A stretch of 64,000 bases of DNA from Nitrosopumilus sp. (GTDB taxonomy: Archaea; Thermoproteota; Nitrososphaeria; Nitrososphaerales; Nitrosopumilaceae): positions 672,001 through 736,000 of the forward strand of contig OZ245003.1 in NCBI GenBank assembly GCA_965223425.1, in the 5' to 3' direction. Positions 38,679 to 63,200 of the stretch are shown here, piece by piece. Positions within the stretch are counted from its first letter, which is position 1, and every line of letters starts with the position of its first letter. Under the pieces are notes generated by a model. The model did no database searches, was not told where the DNA came from, and worked only from the letters and a program-made list of their open reading frames with translations. The position numbers and the translations under genes are program-made.

Positions 38679-39317
38679 TTATTCTTCGATTTTGCTGATC
38701 ATGTCTTTGAATTCGCTTAATCTGCTACTTACCTCGTTTACTCCTGCAAGAATAATTTGTTCTGGACTGAGAGCCCCGGTTGATTCTACAGTGAGAACTC
38801 TTTCGTTTTCTTTGTCTGTTTCAGTAAGCATTGATACATTTGCAGAATTCCATTTGGCATGCTGTGTTCCGCGTCCAAGTTTTGCATAACATTCAATTTT
38901 GATTCTTTGACCTGGAGCTAGTTCAACAAGTGCAATTTTATCTGAAATTGGTTTTATTGAATCATCCTCAGAGGATAATTCATTTGAAAGAACAGTTCTT
39001 GTTTCGTCTGATTCTCCAGAATCTAACACCAACATGACTTTGCAGTTTGAGCAGCCAGACTCACTCTGACATTCACATTTGGATGGTTCATTAAATCTGG
39101 CCAAATCTGTTTTTAATGGAATTAGTCCTAATCTGTGTGCCAATCCCTCGTCAGGTAATACAGAAGAATTTTCTATAATGTCAACTGTATCAATAGCAAA
39201 AACTGGTACGCCATTTAGACAAATACGTCTAAGTGCATTTGCATACTGTAAAGGAACGTTTTTCATCTTTACGGACATTTTTTGATTATCTTTGCTGATT
39301 ACTTCTAGGGATGACAA
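38679..39317 (-). CDS. rpoD: DNA-directed RNA polymerase subunit D (Rpo3)
   Basis: ANALRR, ENSSVLPDEGLAHRLGLIPL, LGRGTQHAKW, VESTGAL. Confidence 0.95.
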   Translation of the reverse strand: MSSLEVISKDNQKMSVKMKNVPLQYANALRRICLNGVPVFAIDTVDIIENSSVLPDEGLAHRLGLIPLKTDLARFNEPSKCECQSESGCSNCKVMLVLDSGESDETRTVLSNELSSEDDSIKPISDKIALVELAPGQRIKIECYAKLGRGTQHAKWNSANVSMLTETDKENERVLTVESTGALSPEQIILAGVNEVSSRLSEFKDMISKIEE

Positions 39318-39920
39318 ATCTTGAACAAAATCTTCAAAGTCCACATAAAAATCTAGCTAGTTTTACGTATGGATGAGGACGAATAACCCTTTGTTATCGA
39401 TAATTCAAAACACCTCGTCTCTGAAAATTTTACTTTCATGTGTTTTGTGGCAATAAATCCTATGTCAGTGTCCTCTCTCATGATCGAGTATGTATTCTGA
39501 ACTAAGACGTTTATGACCATTTTCTTTAATTGTAGTATATGAAAATTATTTCGCCCAGTCATCAGTGTCCTCCTCCCTCCATTTCGGGTTGTCTTTCCTG
39601 ATCGTATCTATGGCCTTTCTATGTCCAAATGCCCGTAGTGAGGTCTCACATCAGTTTACTGAAAGCTAGTCTTTTCATAACTTCAACTTCAAGTACAAAA
39701 ATCCCCGTTGTTTTTACTAGTTTAGGCAGGGTTAGCAACAGACTACTGAAAACGCAAACTATATTATCAAACCTTTTCATAGTCATATATTGGAAAATAA
39801 TTCGTCTGCCAGAGTAGCCGTTTCTAGTTTAATAAATTACATGGATGCAAGTTGTTGTTGTTGTCATGCGTCAAAATTATCTGCCTCCTTTCTGCGCGTA
39901 ACCTTTGATACTCCGCCCGC

Positions 39921-39934
39921 GGGGGGGGGGGGGG
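39921..39934 (+). repeat. G14 homopolymer in the leader of giant gene 1
   Basis: Direct read; 51 nt upstream of the TTG start. Confidence 0.9.
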
Positions 39935-39985
39935 TTAGCAGCAGCAGTAATGGTGGGAGAAGAAGAGTACAGGAGAGTCTGAGAG

Positions 39986-42900
39986 TTGCGACGACTGATA
40001 AAACCGCCATTGCTTGCAACAGCAGCAGCAGCAACAGCGCTTGTTCTTCTGATTCCACTTTGCATCCCCTTTGCGGAAGCCACGATAGATTCGCCTGTTC
40101 CAGTAGCCTCTATCACTGACGACCAGAGACATTCCACCGGCAAGATATTTGACGAGCTTCAATTTGCAAATGACATCACCACAGTAAAGATAGGCACCAG
40201 TACCTACGCCCTGGTCGCAGCAGATCGTGACGACGGCGTCCAGATAATCGACATTACCAATCCAGCAGACCCCTTCCCGACAGCCTCCTTTGGTGACGGG
40301 GACACCGTCACAGTCGACGGGGTAACTGGGACATTTCACGAGCTTGACGACGCACAGGACATCACCACAGTAACTATCGGCACCAGTATCTACGCCCTAG
40401 TCACAGCAAAATCTAACGGCGGCGTCCAGATAATAGACATTACAGATCCCGCAAACCCCTTCCCGACAGCCTCCTTTGGTGACGGGGATCGCGTCACAGT
40501 CGACGGGGTAACTGGGACATTTCACGAGCTTAGATCTGCACGAGGCATCACCACCGTAACTATCGACACCAGTACCTACGCCCTGGTCACAGCAACCACT
40601 GACCGTGGCGTCCAGATAGTCAACATTACAGATCCCGCAAACCCCTTCCCGACGGCCTCCTTTGATGAAGGGGACACCGTCACAGTCGACGGGGTAGTTA
40701 GGACATTTGACAATCTTCGCGAAGGATATGACATCACCACAGCAACTATCGGCGCCAGCACGTACGCCCTAGTCGCAGCATCCTATGTGCACGGCATCCA
40801 GATAATCGACATTACAGATCCCGCAAACCCCTTCCCGACAGCCTCCTTTAATGACGAGGAGCTCGTCACAGTCGACGGGGTAAATGGGACATTTGACAAG
40901 CTTAAAAGACCACGGGACATCACCACAGTAACTATCGACACCAGTATCTACGCTCTGGTCGCAGCATGGAGTGACAACGGCGTCCAGATAGTCAACATTA
41001 CAGATCCCGCAAACCCCTTCCCGACGGCCTCCTTTGGTGACGGGGACCGCGTCCCAGTAGGCAATGCAAACAGGACATATGACGAGCTTGACCGCCCACT
41101 TGGCATCACCACAGTAAAGATAGGCACCAGTATCTACGCCCTGGTCGCGTCAGAACGTGACGACGGCGTCCAGATAATCGACATTACAGATCCCGCAAAC
41201 CCCTTCCCGACCTCCTCCTTTGGTGACGGGGACCGCGTCCCAATCGCCGGTGCAACCAGGATATTTAACGAGCTTAACGGCGCACAGGACATCACCACAG
41301 TAACTATCGACAACAGCACGTACGCCCTGGTCGTGTCTCGCGATGACAGCGGCGTCCAGATAGTCGACATCTCGGCAAGTTCTGTTGCAGGCCAGACCAC
41401 GCCAGTAATCAAACTTTTCGGTGTGAACCCGCACCTGATGGAGCTTGGCGGCGCCAACTATACAGAGTCCGGGGCCACGTGTAATGATGCAGACGGCACC
41501 GACCTAACAAGCAATGTCACCATAAACAGCGGCAGTGTCAGCAGGTTTGCCGTGGGGGAGTACGACGTCACCTACGACTGTGCAGCAGATGACAGCGGCA
41601 GCGACAGCAGCAGGGCCGACACTGTGATCCGCAAAGTCGCAGTCCGCGACACCATAAAGCCCGCATTTGTAGTAGATGAGCACGACGCAGATTACACCAC
41701 CACCATAAACATGAGTGGCACGTACGTTGCAGGCACGATCCTAAACGTGACTGACCGCGACGAGACCACCGAGAGCATAGGGAGCGCCGACGCAGTAGAT
41801 ACAAACATTCCGGGAACCTACTACGTCACCTACACCGTCACTGATGCCTCTGGCAACTCGCGCACAATAACTGAGACCGTAATAATATTTGACACGAGGC
41901 CCCCCGTAATCGAGCTAAACGGCGACAACCCGCACTTTGTGGAGTGGGGCTCCGGATACGACGAGCCGGGCGCCGTATGCACTGACGGCGCAGGCGATGA
42001 CACGCTCTCGCCGGAAAATCTCGTGATAAACTTTACCGCGCCAGTTGACGCATCCGCCGTGGGCGACTACCAGGTCAACTACTACTGCACGGACCCAGAC
42101 AGCAACATTCACGCAGACCCCCCCGTGGTCCGCGTGGTTACAGTCCGCGATACGGTGTCGCCCGTAATTGTCGATGCCGCCCTGCTCGGGGCAGGCACCA
42201 TAGTCCTGACCTACAGCGAGCCAGTCGACGTGAAATCTGATGCGACTGACGGCTCCGGGTTCGGGCTGTCTGACGGAACAGTACATTTCAACTCGGATCC
42301 CGCAGGCGCCGCCAACAAGATAACGCTTGGCATCTCCGGGCGTAACGGCTCCACTGCCGATCCGCCTGACATCACGTATGATTCTGAATCCGGAGGAAGC
42401 GTGGAGGACACCAACGGGAACGCCGCGCACACGGGGACCTTTGATGGAACCATAGATATGGCGCCCCCCATACCAAAGTCTGCCCACACGTCCAACTCCA
42501 CTGCCATTCACATCGGGCTTTCAGAGGCAGTAGCTGACGCCGGTGTCGCTCCCGGCGACTTTGCGCTGTCTGTGGCCCCCGCGGCAGTAACGCCTGTTAA
42601 TGCCACTGTGCATGCAGGTGATGGTGATAATCTCCACGCTGCCCCGCATGTCACCTCCGTGTCAGTTGACGGCTCCCGCATCACGCTCCTCCTAAACGGC
42701 GCGCTGCACGGAAACCAGGACGTAAAGGTCTCATACCAAAAGGGCGGCTCCATCGGTACGGGCACCGGTTCAGGCGGCACCATAAACGACCTCTCAGGGG
42801 GCACCACGCTTGCCGGCTCTGTTCCGATCGGCCAGCAGGCAGACTTTCCAGTCGCCATGACCCTCTCCAAGGACGGCACAACAATCTTTGTGCTTGACTT

Positions 42901-45900
42901 TTTTAACAACCTGCACGCATACGGTTTGCCTGCCCCGTGGGACACATCCGGCGCATCCCACGCATACACCACCCCGCTGGCATCCCTGATACCTCCCATT
43001 CCAGTCAACAGCACCGTCACGGTGAACCCCGAAACTTACATGGCGGGCCTAACCTTCTCTGATGACGGCACCAGGCTGTTTGCCACAGACGCGCTGGACG
43101 GCTCTGTCATCCACGAGTTTGCGTTCTCCTCCCCGTGGAACGCCTCTGCTGAATCCTTTTCCTCGTACACTGCCCACTCTTTACCCCTGTCCGGCATCGG
43201 GCCCAACACGGATCTGCGCGGCATTGCCTTCTCGCCGGACGGTACCACCATGTACATCGCAAGTGACCGCAACGACCAGATACACGAGTTCTCCCTTACT
43301 GATGCGTGGAACGCCTCCTCTGCCTTCCTGACGCACAGCGTCTCTGCGCAGGGCCCCCGGGCAGACGCTGCAGATGTCACTGCAGGCATCGCCTTCTCTG
43401 CTGACGGCTCCCGCATGTTCGTGGCAGTGCCTGATAAAAACCTCATAAACGAGTTTGCGCTTTCAGAGGCCTGGAACATCTCAAGTGCCGCACACGCGGG
43501 ATCATTCAGCCCAGGGCCGTCCGTATTCAGCGTCCTCCCCCCCGGTTCCCTGTCCTTTGTTGACGTGGAACTGCCGTTTGAGCCCTCAGATGTGGCCTTC
43601 TCCGCTGACGGCACCAGCATGTTCGTGCTAGATGAGAGCGCAGGCGATGACTTTCCTGATTCGGTATCCGGCCTGACGCCCGCAGTAAAAGGGTACGCTC
43701 TGGCGCCCCCTGCCAAACCCTTTGATCCCGGGGCCCTCCCAAACCAGCTCGGGTCATTTGGGCTGCGTGAGGTCCAAAACACCCTGCCTGTGGCAAGGGC
43801 AGGCCCTGACGTCTTTGCATATACGAACACGGCAGTGTCCCTTGACGGCACCGGCTCGTATGACGCAAACGGCGACACCCTGGCATACCTGTGGGAGCAG
43901 ACTGGAGGCCCGGGGAACGTGGCACTGGATGATCACACCCTGCAAAAACCGGCGTTCATAGCACCTGCAGTGGCAGACTCGGGGCCCCCCATCGTCCTGG
44001 AGTTCACGCTGACGGTAAGTGACGAAACAGGCAACGCAGACCGTGACACGGTGGCAGTAACGGTGCTTGCAGGCGTGGGTACGCCTGCTATAGTGTCTGC
44101 CAGCGTGGTCAGTGCGACGCAGTTTGAAATAGTGTATAACAAGGCAGTACACGGAAACAGCACCGATTACACCAACCTTGTAATTGACGGCAGGGGGCAG
44201 ACAGTCGGTGTGGTGGCCGGCACCGGGACTGCAACTCACACCGTCTCATATTCCCCCTCTGATACAACGGCAACAACAACAGCAACAACAACGACTGATG
44301 CGACAGGCACCGTGGATATCGGCGATGGAATCACCGATGCCCACGTGCCTGACATCTCGCTGGTTCCAGTTGTCGGCCAAACGCTGTCTGACGGCGTTGC
44401 CCCTACGCTGGTCTCTGCCAGGACGGGTCCTGCCTCAAACCAGATAGACGTCACCTTCTCCGAGGCTGTCCGCAGCGGCGCCTCTGATGACTTTGTCGGC
44501 TGGAGTGTATCGCTGGGAGACAACAATGACAACTACAACACAGTCATTACAGTCACCGGCCTTGACGGTACCGGCAGCACTGCAACCCTGACGCTGCAAA
44601 AACCGGTCATGCCCAGTGACGCAACGCCTGACGTAACGTACGATGCCGCTGCGGGGAGCGTCTCAGATGCGGCAGGCAACGCGTTAGCTACTGCAACTGT
44701 CACCGCTACTGCGGGACATCCTGCAGGTCTTCACATCCACCTGATCGGCGATGCCTTCCTATACCACCCGTACGGGGAACCGTACACCGACAAGGGCGTC
44801 CTGTGCCATGACGCAGACGGAAACGACATAACTGACACCGGCGACTATGAAACCCTGCCGTACCTGCGGCAGCTAAACCAGACCGTAGATGGTGAGAGGC
44901 TAGGCGTAGATGTCAACCTTCATGAAAATACCGTTCTTAATTTTACCCACCAATCCCAAAACGAGTACCGCCCATTTGATCCGCAGGAGGTAATATACAG
45001 GTGTGTCACCCCGCTTGGATCCGTAGAGGAGGGCAGGACCGTAGCCCTGCGTGATGAAACCCCTCCTGAAATCCGACTAAACGGGTCCCGCAACGTGGAT
45101 CTGGAGATAGGCGAGATATTTAATGAGACTGCCACATGTACTGACGCTCCTCTCAAATCCCAGATGGAACGTCTAACCGGTGCCTTTTATCTGACTTTTA
45201 CCATCTCTTCCCTCCCTGACGGGTACCAAAACACCGCAGGAGAGCACACGATAAGCTACACATGTTCGGACTCTAAAGGCAACGACGCAGAAACCAGCAG
45301 AACGCTTCATGTAGGCACGCCTGACAACACGCCACCCGTGCTTGCAGTAAACCCCGGCATAGTGACCACCCTGGCAAACGGCACGCATGTCGTACGGCAG
45401 GATGTCGGCTTTGCAGCAGCAGATGACGGCGGCCTGCAGTCCGCAGTATCCTGCACGGACAACAGGGATGATACCCCTGCAATTACCCTTGATCCTGCCA
45501 CGGTGGACACCTCGTCTGCTGGCACCCACGCCGTAACGTACTCCTGCACGGATGCTGCCGGCAAACAAGCTGATACCGTCACAGTCACCTGGGATTTCGG
45601 TCCTGCAGCCCCCGTGCTTGCAGTAACGCCCGCAGACACCGCAGTCACGCTTGCAATCAACGCATCATACGGCATCCCCGCAGCATCCTGCACAGACCAC
45701 AAAGACGGCGACATCACCAACACCGGGATTCTAACTGCCATCTCGTCTGGAGGCCAGCCAGTCGACGAAATAGACACCTCCTCTGCAGGCACATACGATA
45801 TAACGTACTCCTGCTCAGACTCTACCGGCAACACAGTAGAGCACAACGTGACAGTCACAATCCGGGCTGCCACAACTGACAACACGCCGCCTACCATAGT

Positions 45901-48900
45901 GCTAAAGTCGCCGCCCCTGACACTGTTTGTTCCGGCCGGAGCCGCCTTTGCAGATGCCGATCCCGGCGCCTTCTGCATTGATGGCCAGGACGGACGCACA
46001 GACGAGGGAATCGACGTGGATGCCACCGCACTTGACACGGCCGTTCTTGGCAACCACACCGTGACGTACTCCTGCACGGATTCTGGCGGCCTCCGGTCTG
46101 ACACCATATCAAGGCCAGTCAGCGTGTACGGATTCACCGTAAACGGGAACATCGCCGACTTTGCAACTGACATCACCACCTCTGATGTCTACGAGCCATA
46201 CGCAATCCTAGACATTACGAATATCAAGAATGCGTCACCCAGCAAAAAGTATTACGATACAGACGGGCAAGACACCGCCCGCTTTAACGGAACAACGCTC
46301 CAGGCGGGAACCTGGAGCGTGACGTATGCCGTCTCTGGCCGCGACGACGTGTCAAATCCGATCAACTTTGAAATCGAGGAAACCATAACCGTGGCTACTG
46401 CGACTGCACCGCCGGATGACAACGTCACCCCGACTGCGATAATCAGAGCGCCTGACACCGCAGACGAGGGAGCAACAGTAACCCTTGACGGGACCGGCTC
46501 GACAGACACTGACGGCACCATATCATCATACGCATGGACCACCAACGACACGTCCATCACAATAACAAACCCCTCTCAGGCAACGGCATCATTTACGGCC
46601 CCCTCGGTCGAAAAAGACACTTCTCTGGTCATCACGCTGAAGGTAACTGACAACGACGACGGCACAGATTCTGCACAACACACCATGACCATAACCAACG
46701 TAAGCCGGCCACCGGGTGACACCACATCACCACCGGCCAACAACCCTCCTGTCATCTCGCATACGGTGGACACCGACCAAATCTCTACTACCAGAATCAC
46801 GCTGGATCGCAATACCGGATTTGAGCTTGATGAGCTGGGCGTAACATGCTCTGACCCGGACGGTGACACCGTCCAACTCACGCATGAGGCAAGTCCGGCG
46901 TATGATAAAGACACAGAAGGCAGGTACTCCATCTTCTACACTTGCACCGATTCACGCGACCTTTCTACACACTTCCAGGTTGTCCTGCACCTTTCTGCAC
47001 CTGACAACACGCCACCCACAATCTCACTTGTCGGCGACTCTGAGCATACAGTCGACAAGGGCGCTTCTTACGATGATCCCGGAGCCGAGTGCGCCGACTT
47101 GCGGGATGACTCCCCCGAACTGGTGACATCCGGCTCAGTTGACACCTCCGAACCGGACACCTACGAGATAGAGTACACGTGCAAGGACGCCGCAGGCAAC
47201 GAGTCAGATACTGTTACCCGGACAGTCACCGTATTGCCTGACACCACGCCTCCAACCTTTACGGTAAACGGTAACGCAACCGACTTTGCTACATCCCTGG
47301 CAGAAGGCCAGACCTACAGGAACGGCAAGATAGAAAACATCACCGAGACTGGTAGCCCTCCGACCAGCACGGAGATAAGGTATTACAGCGGCGCCGGCGA
47401 TGCTGCTGTCACCACTGACGAAAACAAGATCAACTCCATTAACAATACCATGCCTGCCATCGGAAGCTACACCATACAGTATACAGTCTCTGACTCGGCC
47501 GTTTCACCAAACACACACACAATCACAGAGACACTCACCGTGCGCGCACCTGCCACGGTAACCATAGGCGCAATCGTCTCGACTACCGGCTCCATCTCGT
47601 CACTTGGCATACCTGCAAATGACACCATACACCTGGCAGTAAATGACTTTAACAGGGAATACCTTGCGTCAAACGAGGCCGCATGGAGGCTTGCAGTGTC
47701 TGAGCATGATGATAGGTCTACTTCTGAGGGCGCAATTGCAGCACTGGAACTGCTTGCAGGCAGCAACATAACCTCCATTGTGGGGCCCCTCACAAGTGAT
47801 GCGCTGTCTGCAGTAAAGGGCCACGCCCTGTTTGACAATCCGTCAAGGCTTGCCATAAGCTACGCATCCACTGCGCCCACGGTGGATCTCAAACAGAAAG
47901 ACGACCGCGTCTTTAGGACCGTCCCTGATGATTCCAATATCGTCAGTGTATACGTCAGCCTCTTTGAGGCAGACTCTGTGGATTACGTGATTCCGGTGTT
48001 CCGCAACGACACGTGGGGGATAGCACTGAACCGGACCCTTGCAGATGAAATTGATGATCATAACAACAATAATAACAACAACAACGAAATAACCGTACAC
48101 GGCGGAATACTGTACGACCCTGACACTGTGTCACTTTCTGCCAACACAACGCTTGCCTTGCTAAATGACACGCTAAGTCAGGATTCCGTCAGTGAAAAGA
48201 CCCCCGCAGTGGTGGTGTTCGGATTTAACGAGACCCTTGACATACTCGACGAGGCTGCAGCCACTGCAAACCTGCCTGCAGCAAAGTGGTACGGCAGCGA
48301 CGCCGTGGCGCCATCAAAGCTGCTTGAGGGTGATGCCCCACGGGACGAGAATCGCAAGGCATTCCTTGAGCGCACCGACTATAACGTGCTCACCCTTGCA
48401 ATAGACCAAAACGAGGCAAACAAAAGGATAGACCGCTCCGTGGACAACGCTGACGTATACTCTTATGCGGCATACGATGCAGTATACATACTCGGCACTG
48501 CCATACACCTCAACGGCGGCTCTGCAGGTAATACAGTCAACGAGGGCCTGATTGGCAACATCACGCAAGTGGCAGACAACACAAACGGGCACTACACAGA
48601 CCCTGCCATGGGCAACACCGAGCTCAACGAGTACGGCGACCTGCTGCAGGCTGACTACTTTGTCCTCTCCCTTGATGCAGGCAGCGGGACCTCCTTTGAG
48701 CCAGAATTCAGGTATTATCACTCATCAGGCACCCTTGAGAGCCTTGTCTCCTCTGGTGGCGGTGGTGGCAGCAGCGGAGACGTCTCTGCCCCCTCAATCC
48801 GCACGGGCTTTGATGCGGGCCAGTACCCACTGGTATATGACGGGGTAAAGTACGGCCCTGACACGATTGACTCTCCCCACACTGCCACGATACGCGCAGG

Positions 48901-49699
48901 CAGCGGCGAGAGGCTTCTCAGCACCCTCACAGTATACGAGAACGGCGGGGCGCAAAACGTGCGGCACGTCGACATGTTTGTCGCACACAACGGCAGGACA
49001 ATACACAACGACGGCACGGAAACCCACGTGACCTACGATTCGGGCAACGTCCGGATAACTGATCCGCACGGCCTGATTGCCAGTGCCACCGTGGATGCGT
49101 CTGCCATTGATGCCACAAAGGCGCAGTTTGAGTTTGCCATAACCTTTGCCAAGAAGGTTCCGCTCTCTGACGTGCTGTACCGCCTGTGGGACACCAGCAG
49201 AAACGCGCTTTACATCCACCTTGAGGACGCCCTTGTGGTGTCTGAGGGAAGGAAAGGCGGCAGCAGCAGCGGAGGCGGCAGCAGCAGCGGTAGCAGCAGC
49301 AGCAGCGGAGGCGGAGGCGGCGGCGGCAGTAGCAGCAGCAGTACTGCCACCCCAGCCACTGGCAGCGGCAACGGCACAACCACAACCACAACCGCCACCG
49401 CTGGCAACGGCACCGCAGCTGACACTGCAGACAAGCAGCAACCACAACAACAACAACCCCGACAGGGCTTTACCGCAGAACAGCTTGACACCCTAAAGCA
49501 GTGGGGCGGATTTGCGTCCCAGTCCGCATCTGACTCGCAGCTTTTAGCCCAGTTCGGAATAGAGGGCACCAGCATCCCCCCATACTTTAAGCAGACAGCA
49601 AAGTGGTTCCTCGATGCAGATGACGGCGGTGACGGCCTGACTGCGCAGGAGTTTGTCGCAGCGCTGTCGTACCTCGGGCAGCGCGGGCTGCTAAACTAG
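39986..49699 (+). CDS. Giant modular cell-surface protein 1 (3237 aa): signal peptide, 7 LVIVD-like propeller repeats, DUF5011/Ig-like domains, second propeller, PKD domains, branched-chain amino acid SBP-like domain, low-complexity linker, thaumarchaeal-type C-terminal motif
   Basis: SD-like AGGAG at 39971 then TTG; hydrophobic signal; YALV...DGVQIIDITDPANP repeats; PPVIELNG/DAAGN motifs; FSxDGT repeats; IVGPLTS...ISYASTA...FRTVPDD; IPPYFKQTAKWF...FVAALSYL. Confidence 0.9.
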   Translation: MRRLIKPPLLATAAAATALVLLIPLCIPFAEATIDSPVPVASITDDQRHSTGKIFDELQFANDITTVKIGTSTYALVAADRDDGVQIIDITNPADPFPTASFGDGDTVTVDGVTGTFHELDDAQDITTVTIGTSIYALVTAKSNGGVQIIDITDPANPFPTASFGDGDRVTVDGVTGTFHELRSARGITTVTIDTSTYALVTATTDRGVQIVNITDPANPFPTASFDEGDTVTVDGVVRTFDNLREGYDITTATIGASTYALVAASYVHGIQIIDITDPANPFPTASFNDEELVTVDGVNGTFDKLKRPRDITTVTIDTSIYALVAAWSDNGVQIVNITDPANPFPTASFGDGDRVPVGNANRTYDELDRPLGITTVKIGTSIYALVASERDDGVQIIDITDPANPFPTSSFGDGDRVPIAGATRIFNELNGAQDITTVTIDNSTYALVVSRDDSGVQIVDISASSVAGQTTPVIKLFGVNPHLMELGGANYTESGATCNDADGTDLTSNVTINSGSVSRFAVGEYDVTYDCAADDSGSDSSRADTVIRKVAVRDTIKPAFVVDEHDADYTTTINMSGTYVAGTILNVTDRDETTESIGSADAVDTNIPGTYYVTYTVTDASGNSRTITETVIIFDTRPPVIELNGDNPHFVEWGSGYDEPGAVCTDGAGDDTLSPENLVINFTAPVDASAVGDYQVNYYCTDPDSNIHADPPVVRVVTVRDTVSPVIVDAALLGAGTIVLTYSEPVDVKSDATDGSGFGLSDGTVHFNSDPAGAANKITLGISGRNGSTADPPDITYDSESGGSVEDTNGNAAHTGTFDGTIDMAPPIPKSAHTSNSTAIHIGLSEAVADAGVAPGDFALSVAPAAVTPVNATVHAGDGDNLHAAPHVTSVSVDGSRITLLLNGALHGNQDVKVSYQKGGSIGTGTGSGGTINDLSGGTTLAGSVPIGQQADFPVAMTLSKDGTTIFVLDFFNNLHAYGLPAPWDTSGASHAYTTPLASLIPPIPVNSTVTVNPETYMAGLTFSDDGTRLFATDALDGSVIHEFAFSSPWNASAESFSSYTAHSLPLSGIGPNTDLRGIAFSPDGTTMYIASDRNDQIHEFSLTDAWNASSAFLTHSVSAQGPRADAADVTAGIAFSADGSRMFVAVPDKNLINEFALSEAWNISSAAHAGSFSPGPSVFSVLPPGSLSFVDVELPFEPSDVAFSADGTSMFVLDESAGDDFPDSVSGLTPAVKGYALAPPAKPFDPGALPNQLGSFGLREVQNTLPVARAGPDVFAYTNTAVSLDGTGSYDANGDTLAYLWEQTGGPGNVALDDHTLQKPAFIAPAVADSGPPIVLEFTLTVSDETGNADRDTVAVTVLAGVGTPAIVSASVVSATQFEIVYNKAVHGNSTDYTNLVIDGRGQTVGVVAGTGTATHTVSYSPSDTTATTTATTTTDATGTVDIGDGITDAHVPDISLVPVVGQTLSDGVAPTLVSARTGPASNQIDVTFSEAVRSGASDDFVGWSVSLGDNNDNYNTVITVTGLDGTGSTATLTLQKPVMPSDATPDVTYDAAAGSVSDAAGNALATATVTATAGHPAGLHIHLIGDAFLYHPYGEPYTDKGVLCHDADGNDITDTGDYETLPYLRQLNQTVDGERLGVDVNLHENTVLNFTHQSQNEYRPFDPQEVIYRCVTPLGSVEEGRTVALRDETPPEIRLNGSRNVDLEIGEIFNETATCTDAPLKSQMERLTGAFYLTFTISSLPDGYQNTAGEHTISYTCSDSKGNDAETSRTLHVGTPDNTPPVLAVNPGIVTTLANGTHVVRQDVGFAAADDGGLQSAVSCTDNRDDTPAITLDPATVDTSSAGTHAVTYSCTDAAGKQADTVTVTWDFGPAAPVLAVTPADTAVTLAINASYGIPAASCTDHKDGDITNTGILTAISSGGQPVDEIDTSSAGTYDITYSCSDSTGNTVEHNVTVTIRAATTDNTPPTIVLKSPPLTLFVPAGAAFADADPGAFCIDGQDGRTDEGIDVDATALDTAVLGNHTVTYSCTDSGGLRSDTISRPVSVYGFTVNGNIADFATDITTSDVYEPYAILDITNIKNASPSKKYYDTDGQDTARFNGTTLQAGTWSVTYAVSGRDDVSNPINFEIEETITVATATAPPDDNVTPTAIIRAPDTADEGATVTLDGTGSTDTDGTISSYAWTTNDTSITITNPSQATASFTAPSVEKDTSLVITLKVTDNDDGTDSAQHTMTITNVSRPPGDTTSPPANNPPVISHTVDTDQISTTRITLDRNTGFELDELGVTCSDPDGDTVQLTHEASPAYDKDTEGRYSIFYTCTDSRDLSTHFQVVLHLSAPDNTPPTISLVGDSEHTVDKGASYDDPGAECADLRDDSPELVTSGSVDTSEPDTYEIEYTCKDAAGNESDTVTRTVTVLPDTTPPTFTVNGNATDFATSLAEGQTYRNGKIENITETGSPPTSTEIRYYSGAGDAAVTTDENKINSINNTMPAIGSYTIQYTVSDSAVSPNTHTITETLTVRAPATVTIGAIVSTTGSISSLGIPANDTIHLAVNDFNREYLASNEAAWRLAVSEHDDRSTSEGAIAALELLAGSNITSIVGPLTSDALSAVKGHALFDNPSRLAISYASTAPTVDLKQKDDRVFRTVPDDSNIVSVYVSLFEADSVDYVIPVFRNDTWGIALNRTLADEIDDHNNNNNNNNEITVHGGILYDPDTVSLSANTTLALLNDTLSQDSVSEKTPAVVVFGFNETLDILDEAAATANLPAAKWYGSDAVAPSKLLEGDAPRDENRKAFLERTDYNVLTLAIDQNEANKRIDRSVDNADVYSYAAYDAVYILGTAIHLNGGSAGNTVNEGLIGNITQVADNTNGHYTDPAMGNTELNEYGDLLQADYFVLSLDAGSGTSFEPEFRYYHSSGTLESLVSSGGGGGSSGDVSAPSIRTGFDAGQYPLVYDGVKYGPDTIDSPHTATIRAGSGERLLSTLTVYENGGAQNVRHVDMFVAHNGRTIHNDGTETHVTYDSGNVRITDPHGLIASATVDASAIDATKAQFEFAITFAKKVPLSDVLYRLWDTSRNALYIHLEDALVVSEGRKGGSSSGGGSSSGSSSSSGGGGGGGSSSSSTATPATGSGNGTTTTTTATAGNGTAADTADKQQPQQQQPRQGFTAEQLDTLKQWGGFASQSASDSQLLAQFGIEGTSIPPYFKQTAKWFLDADDGGDGLTAQEFVAALSYLGQRGLLN
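40090..41375 (+). repeat. Seven 180-bp (60-aa) tandem repeats, LVIVD-like beta-propeller blades
   Basis: Recurrent ACATTACAGATCCCGCAAACCCCTTCCCGAC framework at 180-nt period. Confidence 0.92.
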
Positions 49700-50221: not shown

Positions 50222-50259
50222 CCGTCCGGTGCTGCCGGCTCTGTGACGCAGTTTCTCAG

Positions 50260-50598: not shown

Positions 50599-50644
50599 AC
50601 TATGACAACAAACTGGTAAAATAAAACCAACAAAAAATCCTAAC

Positions 50645-56941: not shown

Positions 56942-57210
56942 GTAGCTATAACCGGCAATCCGCGATTCTACAGATTCTGGGCGCGTGTGATTCTTTGTAG
57001 TGGAAGGTTTCTTCTCTTGGTAATCTCTACAAAGTACTTCTGGGAAACTGGAATCTGAAAAAAATACATAAATATCAAAACAAAAGCATCAAGTTGTTGA
57101 TTTACGCCTTTCAGTTATCTGCTTTCAAGAAGCCGTCGTCGCTAGCCGTACTGCGCATCTGTCATTCCTGCAGCAATCCTGCCTTCCCTGCCACAATGTT
57201 GCCTGACATC

Positions 57211-57224
57211 GGGGGGGGGGGGGG
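57211..57224 (+). repeat. G14 homopolymer in the leader of giant gene 2
   Basis: Direct read; 62 nt upstream of the TTG start. Confidence 0.9.
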
Positions 57225-57286
57225 TGGAGGAAGGATCAGCAGCAGTAATGGTATTGGGAGAAGGAGAGGACAGGAGAGTCTGACAG

Positions 57287-60200
57287 TTGCAACGACTGAT
57301 AAAACCGCCGTTTCTTGCAGCAGCAACAACAACAGCAATAGCAATGGCGGCACTTGTTCTTCTGATTCCCCTCTGCATCCCCCCTGCAGATGCCGCAACG
57401 GATGCAACGTCTGTTCCGACAGACTGGAGCCTGATACCCTCGGGCCTTGGCGACGGGGACCAGTTCAGGCTGCTTATCACGACGTCAACCAAACGCAACG
57501 CCGCATCTTCTGACATTGCCGTATATGACACGTACATCCAAAACCTCGTAGCATCAGGCCATGCAGACATACAAGAGCACAGCTCGTCATTCAGGGTGGT
57601 GGGCAGTACCAATGCAGTCGATGCGCGCGACCACACCGGCACCACCTATACCGACGATGACAAGGGCCCCCCAATCTACTGGCTAAAGGGCGCAAAGGTG
57701 GCAGATAACTATCAGGACTTTTACGACGGATCATGGGATGAGGAGAGATCCGGGCGAAACGAGCACGGAAACGAATTACTGTTTGGCTCTTCTGATACAG
57801 TGAATGTGTTTACCGGCTCTAATGATGATGGGACAAAACACGGCAACTCCCTTGGCTCCAGCAGTGTGCACGTTGGAGTCCCAAACAATGATGGTGGAGC
57901 TAGACTTAACCCACTCGGCAACGTTGCCATATCTCTGTCATCAAGTGAGACGCATCCGTTTTACGGCATCTCGCCTGTATTTCAGGTGGGAAGCATAAAT
58001 GCCGTCCCGACTGCGAAAATCAGCGCGCCTGACACCGCAGACGAGGGCACAACTGTAACCCTTGACGGGACTAGCTCTAGTGATGATGACGGCACAATAT
58101 CGTCATACGCGTGGAGCGCCAGCGACGCGTCCGTCGCAATAACAAACTCCTCTCAAAAGACTGCATCATTTACTGCGCCCCAGGTCACAGAGGACACTCC
58201 CCTGGTCATCACGCTGAAGGTGACTGACAACGACGGCGACACTGGCTCTGCACAACACACCGTCACCATTACCAATACCGTGACTGATCCCCCCAGGTTC
58301 GTCTCAGCAGAGCTAGACGAGTCAACGGGTATGCTGAAAATCACATTTGACAAGACGATAGACGCATCCGGCGTCGATGCCACAAAGTTCCACATAAGAG
58401 AGTCCGGATCCGTCACGGGAGGCGTGACCCTGTCTGCACCGGAGCTTGACACTGCCGCTACTACTACTGACGGCACCGCGCTCTCATTTACGCTGACTGG
58501 CCCGAACCGCGACGCAGTCATCGCGCTGGATGACCCGCAACTGGAGATAGGGGAGGGCGCCGTGGCCGACGTCAATGGCACCAGGATAACTGCGGCCTTT
58601 GACATATCGACTGCCAGGTTCGCCGAGTCTTTTGCCTTTCCGCTGACTACAGATAATGCGGCCAATAGCATCTCCTTCTCAAACGACGGCCTGAGGATGT
58701 TCCTGGCAGACGCCAGGCCTGTTAACGTACGCCAGTACGCCCTGCCTGCGGCCTTTGACGTGTCAGGCGCCAGCCTTACCCGCTCTGTTATGCTTTCATT
58801 CAGCAATATTGGCCTATCCGGCCTTACCTTCTCAAACGACGGCCTAAAGATGTTTACGGTAGATATTCTAACTGATCAAGTACGCCAGTACGCCCTGCCT
58901 GCGGCATTTGACGTGTCAGGCGCCAGCCTTACCCGCTCTGATACGCTTGTTAGCGCCATGGGTGACCTTGCCTTCTCAAATGACGGCCTAAGTGTGTTTG
59001 TTCTCCAGGCATTCTCTAGTACTGTAACACGTTACGACCTGTCTGCACCATTTAACATGACAGGCGCCAGCAAAGTCGGCTCCCACACCTTCGGTTTATT
59101 GGGCGTGAGTTCGTATGGCCTTACCTTCTCAAATGACGGCCACAGGATGTTCATAACAAGCCAACGTGATAGTGGTGCCTCTCACCATACCGACACCATG
59201 TACCAGTACGACCTGCCTACAGCATTTGACACGACAGGCGCCAGCCTTGTCGGCACCCTTGGCGTCTCCCCGCAGCCGACGGGCTCAAGAAACACCGCCT
59301 TCTCAAATGACGGCCTTGAGATGTTCCTGCTAGATCGAACCAACAGTACCGTACACCGGTACGACCTGAGGCTGCTCTACGACATAGACAGGGTTCTGCC
59401 ACCGGACATCAACGTTGTTCCAGTCGCCTCCTTTGATGACGGGGACACCGTCAAAGTCGGCAATACAAACAAGACATTTGACGAGCTTAGCCGCCCATAT
59501 GGCATCACCACGGTAAAGATAGGCTCCAGTACCTACTCCCTGGTCGCATCATTTGATGATGACGGCGTCCAGATAATCAACATTACCAATCCCGCAAAAC
59601 CCGTCCCGACCTCCTCCTTTGATGACGGGGACACCGTCACAGCAGTCGACGGGACACCCAGGACATTTGACGAGCTTGACAGCGTACGGGACATCACCAC
59701 GGTAAAGATAGGCTCCAGTACCTACGCTTTGGTCGCATCATCCAGTGACGACGGCGTCCAGCTAGTCAACATTACCAATCCCGCAAAACCCGTCCCGACC
59801 TCCTCCTTTGATGACGGGGACACCGTCAAAGTAGGCAGTACAAACAAGACATTTGACAAGCTTGACGGCGCATATGGCATCACCACGGTAAAGATAGGCA
59901 CCAGTACCTACGCTTTGGTCGCATCATTTGATGATGACGGCGTCCAGATAGTCAACATTACGGATCCCGCAAACCCCGTCCCGACCTCCTCCTTTGGTAA
60001 AGGGGACACCGTCAAAGTAGGCAGTACAAACAAGACATTTGACGAGCTTGACGGCGCATTGGGCATTACCGTAGTGGATATGGGCACCAGTACCTACGCC
60101 TTGGTCACAGCATACAATGACAACGGCGTCCAGATAGTCAACATTACGGATCCCGCAAAACCCGTCCCGGCAGTCTCCTTTGATAAAGGGGACACCGTCG

Positions 60201-63200
60201 AAGTAGGCAGTACAGACAAGACATTTGACGAGCTTGGAGGCGCATGGGGCATTACCGTAGTGGATATGGGCACCAGTACCTACGCCTTGGTCGCAGCAAA
60301 CACTGATGACGGCGTCCAGCTAGTCAACATTACCAATCCCGCAAAACCCGTCCCGACCTCCTCCTTTGGTAAAGGGGACACCGTCGAAGTAGACAATACA
60401 GAGAAGACATTTGACGGGCTTGACGGCGTACGGGGCATCACCACAGCAACTATAGGCTCCAATACCTACGCCTTGGTCGCATCATACGCTGATGACGGCG
60501 TCCAGATAATCGACATTACAGATCCCGCAAACCCTTTTCCGTCAATCTCCATTAATAACGGGGACACCGTCAAAGTAGGCAATACAAACAAGACATTTGA
60601 CAAGCTTGGAGGCGCACAGGACATTACCGTAGTGGATATAGGCTCCAATACCTACGCCCTGGTTGCAGCATACGATGACAACGGCGTCCAGATAATGGAA
60701 ATCTCGGCAAGATCTGCTGCAAGCCTGCCCACTGTGGCCCCGACCCTCGTGTCTGTTGAAAGGCACGACCCTGCCACACAAAGCACAAACGATCGCAACC
60801 CGACCTTCAGGGTAACCTTCAGCAAGGCAGTAAACAACGTGGATGCACCAGACTTTGAGACCTTAGGTGATGCCACAGCGACAGTCTCTGCTGTCACCCC
60901 GGTATCTGATACGGTATACCACGTGGAGGTAAACGTGACTGCAGACGGCATAGTCAACCTTGGCATTGATGCAGTACACAACATCCAAGATGCCGCAGGC
61001 AACTCCCTGTCCGGTACTGGGCCTACCGAGACAGACGAGCCATACACCATAGATACAGTTCCCCCAACCCTTGCATCAGTTACAAGGCACAGCCCTGCAG
61101 AGGAGGACACAAGCAACAACATCCTGGTCTTCAGGGCAAACTTCAGCGAGGCAGTCGCCAACGTGGATGAACCAGACTTTGTGATCCTGGGCAACGCCAA
61201 TATGAGCAACTTTGCAGTCACCCCCGTGCCTTCCAGCTCCAACTCCACATACGAAGTACGCGTATTTGTATTAATAGACGGCACGGTCGAACTTGGCATC
61301 AATGCTACGGCAAACGACATCACAGACGCCGCAGGCAACGCCCTGTCCGGCACGGGACCGACGGGGGCCAACGAAACATACACAGTAGATAAAGTTCTGC
61401 CAGCCCTTACATCCGTTGAAAGGCACGACCCTCTCACAGAAAACACAAACGATGACACCCCCACCTTCAGGGTAACCTTCAGCGAGGCAGTGGTTAACGT
61501 GGACCAATCAGATTTTCTGGACACAGGCAGCGCCACAGCGGCAGTCTCCGCTGTCGTCCCGGTGCCCGGCGGTAAAATATACGACGTGGGGGTAACCGTA
61601 ACTGCAAACGGCACAGTCGGCCTTTCCATCTCACTGACAACAGACATTGAGGACGCCGCAGGCAACTTAATGCGCCTTGGGCTGCCTAGCGGGGACAACG
61701 AATTATACAGCGTCTCCCTCCTCCCGCAGGCAGAAAACCGGCCTCCGACAATCACCCTAACCGGCGACAACCCTGCAACTGCAGAAAGGTACGTCACATA
61801 CACAGATGCCGGGGCAGCCTGCGCCGATCCTGACGGCGATGATATAACGCTTACCAACTCCTCTAATGTGGACACGGACACAGTATCTTTGCCGGCATCT
61901 CCTTACCGGTACACCTACTCGTGTACAGACCAACACGGGCTTGCCGCGACAAACAAGACCAGACTCGTCAGTGTGGAGGATACCGTGACACCTGTGATTA
62001 CCCTTGTCGGCCCGGCATCAGTATCGCTGACAGTGGGCGACACATACACGGAAGAAGGGGCAACCTGCACTGACTCTGGCCGTCTGCTTGGTGCTGCCAG
62101 TATCGGCGGCGCTACGGTGGACACGGCTGTCGTCAACGAGTACGATGTGGTGTATGCCTGCTCAGACGGGTACAACAACGCTATTCCGGTAACCAGGACC
62201 GTAACTGTTACAGAACCGACGACAACGCCACCAACGCCAACGCCACCAACGCCAACGCCTCCAACCCCGACTGACGACAGTGGCGCCCCCACCTTCACTG
62301 CAAGAACCGGCCCTGCCACAAACCAGGTGACTGTCACCTTCTCTGAGAACGTCAACAGCACGGCTGACTCCCATACAGCATGGGGCGTGGCAGGAAGCAC
62401 GGTCACCGCAGTCACCGGCCTTGACGGGACTGACGACACCGCAGTAATAACGCTGCAAAGCCCAATCCGGCCGCCTGATGCAACGCCTGCCGTGACATAC
62501 GATGACGATGCGGGGGACATCTCAGATGCTGCAGGCAACAGGATGCTTACCGCCACTGTCACCGCTACTGCGGGACACCCGGCGGACCTTCACATACACC
62601 TGATCGGCGATGCCTTCCTATACCACCCGTACGGGGAACCGTACACCGACGAGGGCGCCCTGTGCCATGACGCAGACGGAAATGACATAACTGACACCGG
62701 CGACTATGAAACCCTGCCGTACCTGAATCGGACGCAGACCATAAACGTCAACCTTCACGCAGATACTGCTCTTAATTTTACCCACCCCACCCAAAACCTT
62801 TACCGCCCCTTTGATCCGCAGGAGGTAACATACAACTGCACCACCCCGCTTGTATCCGTAGAGGACTCCAGGCTGGTAGCCCTGCGCGATGAAACCCCCC
62901 CTGAAATCCACCTAAACGGGCCACGCAACGTGGATCTGGAGTTGGGGGAATCATTTGGGGATCCTGATCCTGCCACGTGCACTGACACTCCTCTTAAATC
63001 CCAGATGGAACGTGTAGGCGGCCTCTTTTATCTGACTGTTCTCAGCTCTTCCCTCCCTGACGGGTACCAAAACACCGCAGGAGAGTACACGATAACCTAC
63101 ACATGTTCGGACTCTAAAGGCAACGACGCAGAGGATACAAGCAGAACGCTTCATGTAGGCACGCCTGACAACACGCCACCCGTGCTTGCAGTCAACCCCG

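What the first reader, a model, noticed from the sequence alone, without database searches (positions are those of the whole stretch)
39841..40119. Candidate phase-variation switch: poly-G inside an upstream ORF, conserved in both giant surface-protein genes
Seen: both giant genes have a homologous leader: G14 (39921-34; 57211-24), then CAGCAGCAGTAATGGT...CAGGAGAGTC-TGA-NAG-TTG(start). In each, an upstream ATG (39841; 57196) reads through the G tract. With G14 this uORF overruns the start out of frame (stops at 40119; 57513). With G13 it shifts frame and stops at the conserved TGA 3 nt before the TTG (39980; 57281). With G15 it stops about 40-50 nt before the start. The three outcomes match at both loci although the DNA upstream of the tracts is largely different. 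Established: long G tracts slip and drive phase variation of bacterial surface genes, normally inside the CDS or promoter. Inference: slippage may toggle translational coupling versus occlusion of an intact adhesin ORF. I know of no such description in Thaumarchaeota. Alternatives are promoter or 5'UTR spacing effects or a G-quadruplex.
Basis: partly seen in the sequence, partly recalled or inferred. Interest (0 to 1): 0.85.

Follow-up and report, generated by a model that had tools for sequence, protein, structure and literature searches.

The report
Slippery poly-G tracts before archaeal adhesin genes
An ammonia-oxidising archaeon carries a run of 11-15 G's in the shared leader of eleven giant surface-protein genes, and similar runs in sugar-modifying and DNA-defence genes. 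This is the layout bacteria use to switch surface features on and off at random, but no switching has yet been shown here.

Summary
G14 sits at 39921-34 and 57211-24. The same promoter-leader-signal-peptide module precedes 11 giant genes (1483-7840 aa) in this Nitrosopumilus-genus genome, each with a G11-G15 tract.

Paralogue pairs that are 94-98% identical in the flanks differ by 1-4 G. The genome holds 25 G/C runs of 11 or more, against about 0.15 expected. The others lie in sulfotransferase genes, in two Type IIG-like restriction-modification genes split exactly at the tract, upstream of a methylase-HNH gene and upstream of a twelfth giant gene.

Other species of the genus carry such tracts inside the signal-peptide coding region of their own multi-copy secreted-protein families. 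In-frame and out-of-frame copies occur side by side. I read this as an archaeal set of slippage-prone contingency loci (about 0.6).

The proposed uORF coupling/occlusion mechanism is possible but unproven (about 0.3):
- All 11 copies keep TGA-NAG-TTG and an SD at -14.
- The "matching geometry" follows from homology, and the phases are 3/6/2.
- The uATG has no SD and the uORF shows no coding constraint.
- The TSS is unknown.

No read-level length data could be obtained. This scan has noted similar tracts in other archaeal genomes.

The parts
39757..39768 (+). TATA-like box of locus A that aligns with the single TATA-like box of the other leaders (candidate promoter)
   Evidence: enriched TATA-type 6-mers at 39760-39767. 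Inference only, no TSS data.
39828..39839 (+).
   Evidence: 6-mers at 39828-39839. Genome-wide, TATA-like 6-mers peak 26-35 nt before start codons.
39841..40119 (+). Tract-spanning uORF of locus A as assembled (G14: frame +1, overruns the TTG start by 134 nt)
39921..39934 (+). G14 tract, locus A, on the sense strand
39950..39982 (+). Short tract-independent uORF (ATG overlapping TAA in TAATG) that ends at the TGA 3 nt before the start
   Evidence: present in 10 of 11 leaders.
39972..39975 (+). Shine-Dalgarno-like GGAG, 14 nt before the TTG
   Evidence: 11 of 11 leaders. (16S 3' end ...CCUCCU; genome-wide GGAG peak at -14 to -11).
39980..39988 (+). TGA-GAG-TTG: conserved in-frame stop, one codon, then the TTG start
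   Evidence: TGA-NAG-TTG in 11 of 11.
39986..49699 (+). Giant surface-protein gene A (3237 aa; signal peptide; Ig-like, PKD and ANF_receptor domains)
57064..57076 (+). A-run plus TATA-like box where homology among the nine B-type leaders begins (candidate promoter)
   Evidence: the only TATA-type 6-mers of the leader: 57067-57075.
57094..57099 (+). TTG-TTG in frame with the uATG, about 29 nt after the TATA-like box (possible 5'-proximal start of the uORF)
   Evidence: frame open from here to the tract in 9 of 9 B-type leaders. One search shows no peptide constraint.
57196..57513 (+). Tract-spanning uORF of locus B as assembled (G14: frame +1, overruns the start by 227 nt)
57211..57224 (+). G14 tract, locus B
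57248..57283 (+). Short uORF (TAATG ... TGA), locus B
57273..57276 (+). GGAG at -14, locus B
57281..57289 (+). TGA-CAG-TTG
57287..64000 (+). Giant surface-protein gene B (3218 aa in the genome; runs off the window; Ig-like and PKD domains)

Best explanation
The G tracts are slippage-prone contingency tracts built into a shared 5' control module. The module consists of an A-run/TATA-like box, a leader of about 190 nt, an SD and TTG start, and a signal peptide. It heads a family of 11 giant adhesin-like surface-protein genes. Each copy's tract changes length on its own, so individual paralogues would be expressed differently from cell to cell. This belongs to a genome-wide set of poly-G loci that also covers sulfotransferases and restriction-modification/methylase genes.

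Shown: the tracts, the module, length differences between near-identical paralogues, the gene classes involved, and frame-breaking tracts in coding regions here and in relatives.

Inferred:
(a) The tract is transcribed, because the only conserved TATA-like box lies about 135 nt upstream of it.
(b) Length changes alter expression.
(c) The most likely read-out is translational. The tract lies in a uORF whose frame decides where ribosomes stop. They stop either 3 nt before the SD-led TTG (re-initiation possible), or 38-50 nt upstream (uncoupled), or 89-227 nt inside the gene (start region occluded).

My odds: contingency element that affects expression about 0.6; uORF-frame read-out about 0.3.
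For: - 11 of 11 leader copies carry G11-G15.
- The 14 most similar paralogue pairs are 86-98% identical in the 100-nt flanks, and 13 of the 14 differ in tract length.
- 25 G/C runs of 11 or more are observed, against 0.13-0.16 expected.
- Non-leader tracts lie in or next to contingency-type genes. Three sulfotransferases have them in frame. Two MmeI/Eco57I-like genes are split at the tract, and G11 would give 1004 and 1005 aa. One tract lies 77 nt before an N6_N4 methylase-HNH gene. One lies 175 nt before a twelfth giant Ig-like gene.
- G runs of 11 or more occur in 23 of 60 other same-genus genomes.
- Relatives have them inside the N-terminal coding region of giant secreted-protein families. 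G017 family P has 3 copies in frame and 3 out; family Q has 3 in frame. The ten-copy G052 family has 6 in frame, 3 out and 1 cut by a contig end. In relatives the tracts also precede a methylase and a sulfotransferase.
- Homology among the leaders begins at an A-run/TATA-like box.
- TGA-NAG-TTG and GGAG at -14 are kept in 11/11 copies, and a TAATG short uORF in 10/11.
- The uATG is the only ATG in the 115 nt before the tract in 7 of 9 B-type leaders.
- Independent leaders share the logic. G007 L031 has uATG, G15, TGA and TTG in the same order. G052 L161 has an 85-codon ORF starting ATG-G11 and ending in an ATGA overlap with an Ig-like gene of 786+ aa.
- Termination-reinitiation coupling works in an archaeon but is almost abolished by about 20 nt of spacing (PMC10666635, abstract read).
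- No MutS_V domain was found in the 99.99%-complete genome.
Against: - No evidence of length heterogeneity within a population. Only Logan contigs were available, and none of the listed pieces spans either tract.
- No RNA run is on record and there is no TSS information.
- Tract lengths are consensus calls from one assembly.
- The uATG has no SD-like sequence, and most genes here appear leaderless. How ribosomes would start on an internal SD-less AUG is therefore open.
- Variable sites in the uORF fall 10/11/8 by codon position. 17 of 18 variable codons change the residue. A second frame is also open over the same stretch, as I read directly.
- The phases of the 11 copies are 3/6/2, so no phase is preferred.
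- The main start has its own good SD, so uORF effects could be small.
- 2 of 3 G009-X leaders have no ATG uORF through the tract, and the twelfth giant gene's tract lies 159 nt from its start. Some leader tracts must therefore work otherwise, or not at all.
- In G055, G002 and G021, 16 of 17 tracts examined were not next to a long same-strand ORF.
Confidence: 0.5

Rival explanations
1. The tract is a length-dependent but frame-independent RNA-level dial. The transcribed G run is a binding site for a C/U-rich partner, or it forms a G-rich structure. The partner could be a small RNA as in Helicobacter RepG-tlpB, the C/U-rich stretch just upstream in the same leader, or the anti-SD of 16S rRNA. 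Tract length then tunes mRNA stability or access to the SD gradually.
For: - RepG-tlpB is a worked precedent. There a 6-16 G repeat in a 5'UTR sets repression or activation by a C/U-rich sRNA loop (PMC8295292, passages read).
- The G run is on the sense strand in all 12 giant-gene leader loci and in nearly all gene-associated tracts.
- Leader tracts without a tract-spanning ATG uORF exist in G009-X (2 of 3).
- The predicted fold pairs the tract with the upstream CCUGCCUUCCCUGCC.
Against: - The folds are no more stable than shuffles (z -0.23 and +0.31).
- No partner RNA was identified. The only abundant C/T-rich stretches belong to a repeat of about 40 copies, which I guess, without testing, to be part of a mobile-element gene.
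- The sense-strand bias is confounded with replication direction.
- Relatives mostly use frame-based tracts inside coding regions for the same kind of genes.
Confidence: 0.22
2. The tract acts at the level of transcription. The real TSS lies downstream of it, or the tract lies next to a promoter or regulator site. Its length would then change promoter spacing or activator geometry, as in the Bordetella fim or Neisseria porA/opc promoters.
For: - No TSS data exist.
- In the twelfth giant gene the tract lies between two TATA-like stretches.
- In G009-X an A7 run sits 23-29 nt before the ATG with the tract just upstream of it (read).
- An earlier scan note describes a promoter poly-C before archaeal surface-protein genes (e1-1066409; not independent evidence).
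Against: - Between the tract and the TTG there is no TATA-type 6-mer at either locus.
- The one conserved TATA-like box, where paralogue homology starts, is about 135 nt upstream of the tract.
- An SD at the genome's modal distance implies a leadered mRNA.
Confidence: 0.08
3. The leader tract has no regulatory role. It would be a mutational by-product or a recombination/gene-conversion hotspot that travels with the homogenised 5' module of the family. The apparent uORF geometry would be accidental, and part of the length variation could be assembly noise.
For: - There is no constraint on uORF phase or peptide.
- An open frame from the tract to the TGA is common in shuffles.
- Many tracts in G055, G002 and G021 are not next to long ORFs.
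- Homopolymer lengths are the weakest part of any assembly.
- The tract-bearing unit is tandemly duplicated in one leader, at genome C1:1341530 and C1:1341607.
Against: - Every one of the 11 copies keeps a tract of 11 or more, although runs that long are expected about 0.15 times per genome.
- The length distribution is bimodal. Counts fall to 3 at length 9 and then rise to 12 at length 11.
- The other tracts sit in sulfotransferase, restriction-modification and methylase genes and break frames there.
- Unrelated giant-gene families in four other species of the genus have tracts at their 5' ends.
Confidence: 0.15

Closest known systems
Poly-G/C contingency loci ('phasome') of Campylobacter, Neisseria, Haemophilus and Helicobacter
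   Same: Long G/C homopolymers far above chance. They are concentrated in surface proteins, glycan-modifying enzymes and restriction-modification genes. Frames are broken exactly at the tract, and in-frame and out-of-frame copies sit side by side. The absence of MutS is a shared background (the Campylobacter/Helicobacter side is recalled). Only the search listings and abstract starts of PMC6321876, PMC4965091 and PMC5084427 were seen.
   Different: The host is an archaeon (Nitrosopumilus-genus AOA). Tracts are longer on average (mode 11, up to 16). In the 11-gene family the tract is not in the gene or in a promoter spacer but in a leader, separated from the gene by a conserved stop. Switching itself has not been observed.
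Helicobacter pylori tlpB-hp0102 leader G-repeat targeted by the sRNA RepG
   Same: A variable homopolymeric G repeat (6-16 G) in a 5'UTR upstream of the RBS of a surface-related operon, where length sets the expression level (PMC8295292, passages read).
   Different: No partner sRNA is known here. The tract here lies inside a uORF with a conserved stop next to the start. The same module is used by 11 paralogues. The domain of life differs.
Translational coupling by termination-reinitiation (Haloferax volcanii and E. coli gene pairs)
   Same: In one phase the upstream ORF stops 3 nt before the downstream start. Coupling works in an archaeon and needs overlaps or very short distances (PMC10666635, abstract read; PMC6728339, listing only).
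   Different: Known cases are fixed gene pairs. Here the upstream frame would be set by a mutable tract, giving three alternative stops. Translation of the uORF is unproven.
Mycoplasma hyorhinis vlp family; Moraxella catarrhalis uspA1 poly-G in the 5'UTR; Haemophilus lic1 repeats between alternative starts
   Same: vlp: a multigene surface-protein family shares a conserved 5' module with a homopolymer, and each copy switches independently. uspA1: a poly-G between the TSS and the start changes expression. lic1: repeat number selects among start frames and gives graded levels.
   Different: In vlp the tract is in the promoter spacer, and in lic1 it is in the coding frame. None of these has a uORF stop abutting the main start. 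All are bacterial.
Cj0031-type phase-variable Type IIG restriction-modification enzymes
   Same: Two MmeI/Eco57I-like genes of about 1005 aa are split at a mid-gene G10 or G12 tract, and G11 restores each. An earlier scan note reports the same in another AOA (e1-3975888).
   Different: These lie outside the window. The comparison with Cj0031 rests on that note and on recall, not on an alignment made here.

Membership tests
SSR-mediated phase-variable (contingency) locus | A simple-sequence repeat long enough to slip at high rate and far above chance expectation | tested here: met
   G11-G15 in 11/11 leaders. 25 runs of 11 or more against 0.13-0.16 expected.
SSR-mediated phase-variable (contingency) locus | Repeat length polymorphic within a population or between close strains | tested here: inconclusive
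   Near-identical paralogues differ by 1-4 G. No listed contig spans a tract and no raw reads were served. No orthologous leader exists in 150 same-genus genomes.
SSR-mediated phase-variable (contingency) locus | The repeat is placed so that a unit change alters expression (coding frame, promoter spacing or leader) | tested here: inconclusive
   Met for the tracts in coding regions of this genome (restriction-modification genes and sulfotransferases) and of relatives. For the leader tract only the change of uORF stop position is shown. No expression data exist.
SSR-mediated phase-variable (contingency) locus | Reversible, heritable ON/OFF or graded phenotype | not testable with these tools
   Needs cultures or enrichments, reporters or proteomics.
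uORF / termination-reinitiation coupling | The upstream ORF stops within a few nt of, or overlapping, the downstream start | tested here: met
   TGA ends 3 nt before the TTG in 11/11 copies, but it is reached by the tract-spanning uORF in only one of three phases (3 of 11 copies as assembled).
uORF / termination-reinitiation coupling | The upstream ORF is actually translated | tested here: inconclusive
   There is no SD before the uATG and no codon-position or synonymous bias. The frame is open from the TATA-proximal TTG-TTG in 9/9 B-type leaders, but another frame is open too (read). Ribo-seq is not available.
RepG-tlpB type sRNA-targeted leader G-repeat | The G repeat lies in the transcribed 5'UTR | tested here: inconclusive
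   Inferred from the position of the only conserved TATA-like box. No TSS data and no RNA run.
RepG-tlpB type sRNA-targeted leader G-repeat | A C/U-rich antisense partner RNA | tested here: inconclusive
   The scan for C/T-rich stretches found only a repeat of about 40 copies and low-complexity coding-like runs. No candidate sRNA was identified.
Promoter-spacer homopolymer switch (fim, porA, opc, vlp type) | The tract lies between or immediately beside core promoter elements | tested here: not met
   No TATA-type 6-mer lies between the tract and the start. The conserved TATA-like box is about 135 nt upstream of the tract. This rests on motif position only.

The most novel reading that the evidence does not exclude
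A marine-type ammonia-oxidising archaeon runs a true phasome. Its largest component is a new kind of switch: a poly-G tract inside a uORF sets, by its length modulo 3, whether ribosomes terminate next to, well before, or beyond the SD-led TTG start of each of 11 giant adhesin genes. Each copy would be set independently, so a clonal population would display a combinatorial repertoire of giant surface proteins. This would be the first simple-repeat phase variation shown in Archaea, and a translational-coupling version not described in bacteria.
Probability: 0.25. Interest if true: 0.85.

Novelty: new variant of a known kind. Interest (0 to 1): 0.65.

Why it matters
Stochastic switching of surface structures by slippery repeats is a hallmark of host-adapted bacteria. 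The paper library searched here lists no description of it for archaea.

If these tracts really switch, ammonia-oxidising archaea vary about 5% of their coding capacity (about 41,000 codons of giant adhesin-like genes). They would also vary their glycan sulfation and their DNA-defence enzymes from cell to cell. That bears on how they cope with viruses, grazers or hosts. It also bears on how single-consensus genomes of such organisms should be read, because genes 'broken' at G tracts need not be pseudogenes.

The leader version would add a testable case of uORF-based control in an archaeon whose mRNAs otherwise look mostly leaderless.

Tried and rejected
- Reads. The one run search listed 8 runs, all Logan contigs, and no RNA holder. 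I laid 4 of the 8 (X1, X2, X3, X5) on 39000-58000. The listed pieces stop at 39769 and at 57076-57154 and resume at 57266, so nothing spans either tract. This gives no evidence for or against heterogeneity or expression.
- Orthologues. The leader pattern had 0 hits in genome contigs. Leader DNA matched 0 of 24 same-genus and 2 of 16 same-order genomes, the latter only as 24-52-nt matches. Of 150 same-genus genomes, 1 had a 37-nt match. Two metagenome scans gave 0 hits and 3 chance hits without tracts.
- RNA structure. Folds of both leaders are no better than shuffles.
- Coding signature of the uORF: none.
- Significance of the open frame from tract to TGA: none.
- Search for a C/U-rich partner RNA: nothing usable.
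- Read-through or fusion of the uORF to the gene: rejected. The TGA is kept in 11/11 copies, and 2 copies have TGA-TAG.
- Alternative protein from the overrun frame: rejected. Its translation shows no signal peptide (read).
- Artefactual poly-G. Poly-G runs at contig ends, which look like sequencing artefacts, are seen in some fragmented relatives such as G062. That does not apply here, because the tracts are internal, recur at homologous positions in 11 copies, and occur in several 1-2-contig genomes of relatives.
- Earlier notes for this genome: none fit.
- One script ran into a time limit through an unbounded loop and was corrected.
- Supplementary files of the papers were not consulted (closed). 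The additional files of PMC2831843 may list archaeal homopolymer counts that I could not see.
Full report
WHAT IS THERE. The window is G000:C1:672001-736000 of a 2.51-Mb chromosome plus a 123-kb contig, with 41% G+C. The genome encodes archaeal AmoA. That AmoA is 95-100% identical to those of assemblies titled Nitrosopumilus, Cenarchaeum, Nitrosarchaeum or Nitrosopumilaceae.

G14 lies at 39921-39934 and at 57211-57224. The giant ORFs start with TTG at 39986 (3237 aa) and at 57287 (open at the window end; 3218 aa in the genome). They encode signal-peptide proteins with Ig-like and PKD domains.

THE FAMILY. A search for the leader core found 87 sites with up to 2 mismatches. Eleven of them are followed by TGA-NAG-TTG and an ORF of 1483-7840 aa. 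All 11 have a G tract of 11-15 located 51-79 nt before the TTG. One has a tandem duplicate of the tract-bearing unit.

The alignment of the 11 leaders shows nine 'B-type' copies, including locus B. Their homology begins at CTGAAAAAAATATATAAATACC, about 135 nt upstream of the tract. There are two 'A-type' copies, locus A and C1:1341653, which differ upstream of the tract. All 11 are alike from CAGCAGTAATGG through the signal peptide.

Among the 14 most similar paralogue pairs (86-98% identity in the 100 nt on either side), 13 differ in tract length. An example is G11 against G15 at 98% and 94% flank identity.

The leader is private to this genome:
- 0 of 24 same-genus and 2 of 16 same-order genomes matched it, the latter only as 24-52-nt matches.
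- 1 of 150 same-genus genomes had a 37-nt match.
- There were 0 exact pattern hits in genome contigs.
- Nothing related turned up in two metagenome scans.

THE GENOME-WIDE CONTEXT. The genome has 22 G runs and 12 C runs of 9 or more. Runs of 11 or more number 25, against 0.13-0.16 expected. The length distribution is bimodal. G+C counts are 16 at length 8, 3 at length 9, 6 at length 10 and 12 at length 11.

Beside the 12 leader tracts, the tracts include:
- Three sulfotransferase genes in a cluster at 303-333 kb, all in frame.
- Two more ORFs of that cluster. One would gain 49 N-terminal residues with +1 G.
- Two inverted paralogues of an MmeI/Eco57I-like restriction-modification gene. Each is split at the tract. 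G10 to G11 gives 1004 aa, and G12 to G11 gives 1005 aa.
- A site 77 nt before an N6_N4 methylase-HNH gene.
- A site 175 nt before a twelfth giant gene (3510 aa, 31 Ig-like repeats) that has a related mature N-terminus but a different, A+T-rich leader.

Surface proteins, glycan modification and DNA restriction are the gene classes that make up bacterial phasomes. For that comparison I saw only the abstract starts of PMC6321876 and PMC4965091 in the listing. No MutS_V domain is found, while two NucS_C-domain ORFs are present. From recall, NucS-type repair is thought not to act on slippage loops, so the repair background would favour unstable repeats. I did not check this.

RELATIVES. G runs of 11 or more occur in 23 of 60 other genomes of the genus. 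They are mostly in the larger, nearly closed genomes. Some fragmented assemblies have very long runs at contig ends, which I read as sequencing artefacts without checking.

- G017: 9 of 18 tracts lie inside the N-terminal coding region of two paralogous families of beta-propeller proteins of 1200 aa or more. Family P has 3 copies in frame with the MKY start and 3 out. Family Q has 3 in frame. Other tracts precede an N6_N4 methylase and a sulfotransferase.
- G052: a ten-copy family has the tract in the signal-peptide coding region. Six copies are in frame (one of them only 253 aa long), 3 are out of frame and 1 is cut by a contig end.
- G009: one fn3/Ig-like family has the tract in the coding N-terminus. 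Another has two tandem tracts 35-44 nt before the ATG.
- The association is not universal. In G055, G002 and G021, 16 of 17 tracts examined had no same-strand ORF of 200 aa or more through them or starting within 260 nt downstream.

So 5' tracts on multi-copy giant secreted-protein genes recur in at least four other species (G007, G009, G017, G052), on unrelated protein families. In three of them (G009, G017, G052) the tract works on the reading frame of the gene itself.

WHERE THE LEADER TRACT SITS. TATA-type A/T 6-mers peak sharply 26-35 nt before the ATG of long ORFs. The counts are 519 and 799 in the two bins, against a background of about 200. Most mRNAs here therefore look leaderless.

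The giant genes are different. At locus B the only TATA-type 6-mers are at 57067-57075, which is 212 nt before the TTG. That is exactly where paralogue homology starts. No such 6-mer lies between the tract and the start at either locus. All 11 copies have GGAG at -14, the modal SD position in this genome. The 16S rRNA ends in ...CCUCCU. I infer a leader of about 190 nt that contains the tract.

Locus A is ambiguous, with three TATA-like boxes. No RNA run was listed.

THE uORF HYPOTHESIS.

In favour:
- TGA-NAG-TTG is kept in 11/11 copies, although the N varies (G, C or T).
- In 10/11 copies a TAATG provides a second, tract-independent short uORF that also ends at that TGA.
- In 7 of 9 B-type leaders the uATG is the only ATG in the 115 nt before the tract.
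- Its frame is open back to a TTG-TTG that lies about 29 nt after the TATA-like box in 9/9 B-type leaders.
- Termination-reinitiation works in Haloferax but is almost abolished by about 20 nt of spacing (PMC10666635, abstract). The three stop positions (-3; -38 to -50; +89 to +227) would therefore plausibly differ in effect.
- Two independent leaders in other species show the same logic. G007 L031 has a uATG 20 nt before G15, then TGA, then TTG, with stops at +1, -9 or +149 depending on length. G052 L161 has an 85-codon ORF that starts ATG-G11 and ends in an ATGA overlap with an Ig-like gene.

Against:
- The 'matching geometry' of the two window loci follows from homology plus a 1-in-3 chance of equal phase.
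- The 11 copies are spread 3/6/2 over the phases.
- An open frame from the tract to the TGA occurs in 33-36% of shuffles.
- The uATG has no SD.
- Variable sites fall 10/11/8 by codon position, and 17 of 18 variable codons change the residue.
- A second frame is open over the same stretch, as I read directly.
- The indels between the B-type leaders are multiples of 3, but they lie in triplet repeats, which slip by 3 anyway.
- 2 of 3 G009-X leaders have no ATG uORF through the tract.
- The RNA folds are unremarkable.

VERDICT ON MECHANISM. I put about 0.6 on the tracts being functional contingency elements and about 0.3 on the uORF-frame read-out. I put about 0.2 on a frame-independent RNA-level dial of the RepG-tlpB kind (PMC8295292, passages). 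I put under 0.1 on a promoter-level effect and about 0.15 on no regulatory role. What is missing is any direct sign of switching. The only runs served were Logan contigs, and none of the listed pieces crosses a tract.

KNOWN OR NEW. The following searches listed no description of repeat-mediated phase variation in an archaeon:
- 'phase variation' + archaea + homopolymeric: 45 papers, 20 listed.
- 'phase variation' + 'ammonia-oxidizing archaea': 2 papers, both unrelated.
- Thaumarchaeota + sponge + 'phase variation': 2 papers, unrelated.
- 'phase-variable' + archaeon + 'slipped-strand': 2 papers. Passages of PMC13076061 were read and hold nothing on archaeal phase variation.
- Nitrosopumilus + homopolymer: 48 papers, 12 listed, none on its face about this topic; only titles and abstract starts were seen.
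- A broader six-term search.

PMC2831843 surveyed homopolymers in 18 archaeal genomes. In the passages I read it reports nothing like this. This scan has itself noted poly-C tracts in a restriction-modification gene of another AOA and before surface-protein genes of a DPANN archaeon. Those are unchecked AI notes, not independent evidence. I class the finding as a new variant of a known kind.

Noticed in passing
G000:C1, whole chromosome (window included): 33 of 34 G/C runs of 9 or more fall into two blocks. The G run is on the + strand from 0.30 to 1.62 Mb and on the - strand from 1.64 to 2.50 Mb. The single exception is C9 at 897634, which has no ORF nearby. Orc1/Cdc6 lies at 149 kb, at the cumulative GC-skew maximum, and the minimum is near 1.45-1.5 Mb. 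So the G runs, and all 12 giant genes, point away from the likely origin. G009 and G017 show the same block pattern.
   Followed up: partly
G000:C1:1623314 and C1:1643967 (outside the window): Two inverted paralogues of an MmeI/Eco57I-like Type IIG restriction-modification gene flank the point where the tract strand switches. Both are out of frame as assembled, and both would be intact (1004 and 1005 aa) at G11.
   Followed up: partly
G000:C1:1357298-1362540 (outside the window): A CRISPR array of 74 repeats. Two of its 73 spacers contain G10 or G9 runs, so some targets may themselves carry G tracts. Another spacer has a perfect 34-nt match at C1:198216-198249 of the same chromosome.
   Followed up: partly
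L011, L012, L016, L017, L019, L021, L055 (seven other genomes of the genus): A G11-G12 run sits at what looks like one orthologous intergenic site (...aaaatgaaaa-Gn-...ggccagagatggtctcaaagt...), about 45-50 nt downstream of a ctatatataat box and with no long ORF on that strand. It may be a small transcript. It was not identified.
   Followed up: no
The paralogous leader at C1:1341653 has about seven units. CAG, GGA and AAG triplet repeats in the B-type leaders also vary in copy number.
   Followed up: no
G000:C1:1341530 and C1:1341607 (outside the window): The tract-bearing unit (...acgtaacctttgatactccgcccgc-G11) is tandemly duplicated in one leader. The G009-X leaders also carry two tandem tract units. 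A CTCCGCC-like motif directly precedes the tract in several otherwise unrelated leaders.
   Followed up: no
G000:C1, about 40 sites (e.g. 53308, 130148, 344010): A dispersed repeat carries a hypervariable C/T-rich stretch (CTCCTCCCCCTCCTCTTCCCCC...TTCTTCTTCCT) between constant flanks. Two other dispersed repeats of about 10-20 copies each were seen. I took them for mobile elements but did not examine them.
   Followed up: no
L025, L162, L163 (G009 and G052): A G11-G12 run follows an A run inside a repeated ORF of about 175-254 aa (...ccaaaa-Gn-ataaaataggatatgacggattcaagaag...) in two species. It may be a mobile-element gene with a slippery site.
   Followed up: no
window 39634-41535 and 44706-49777: Summed contig depth over the giant genes is about 10-50 times that of the unique flanks in runs X1 and X2. 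Many joints and variant letters are seen there, as expected when paralogous giant genes collapse onto one copy. This is a warning for any read-based analysis of these loci.
   Followed up: no
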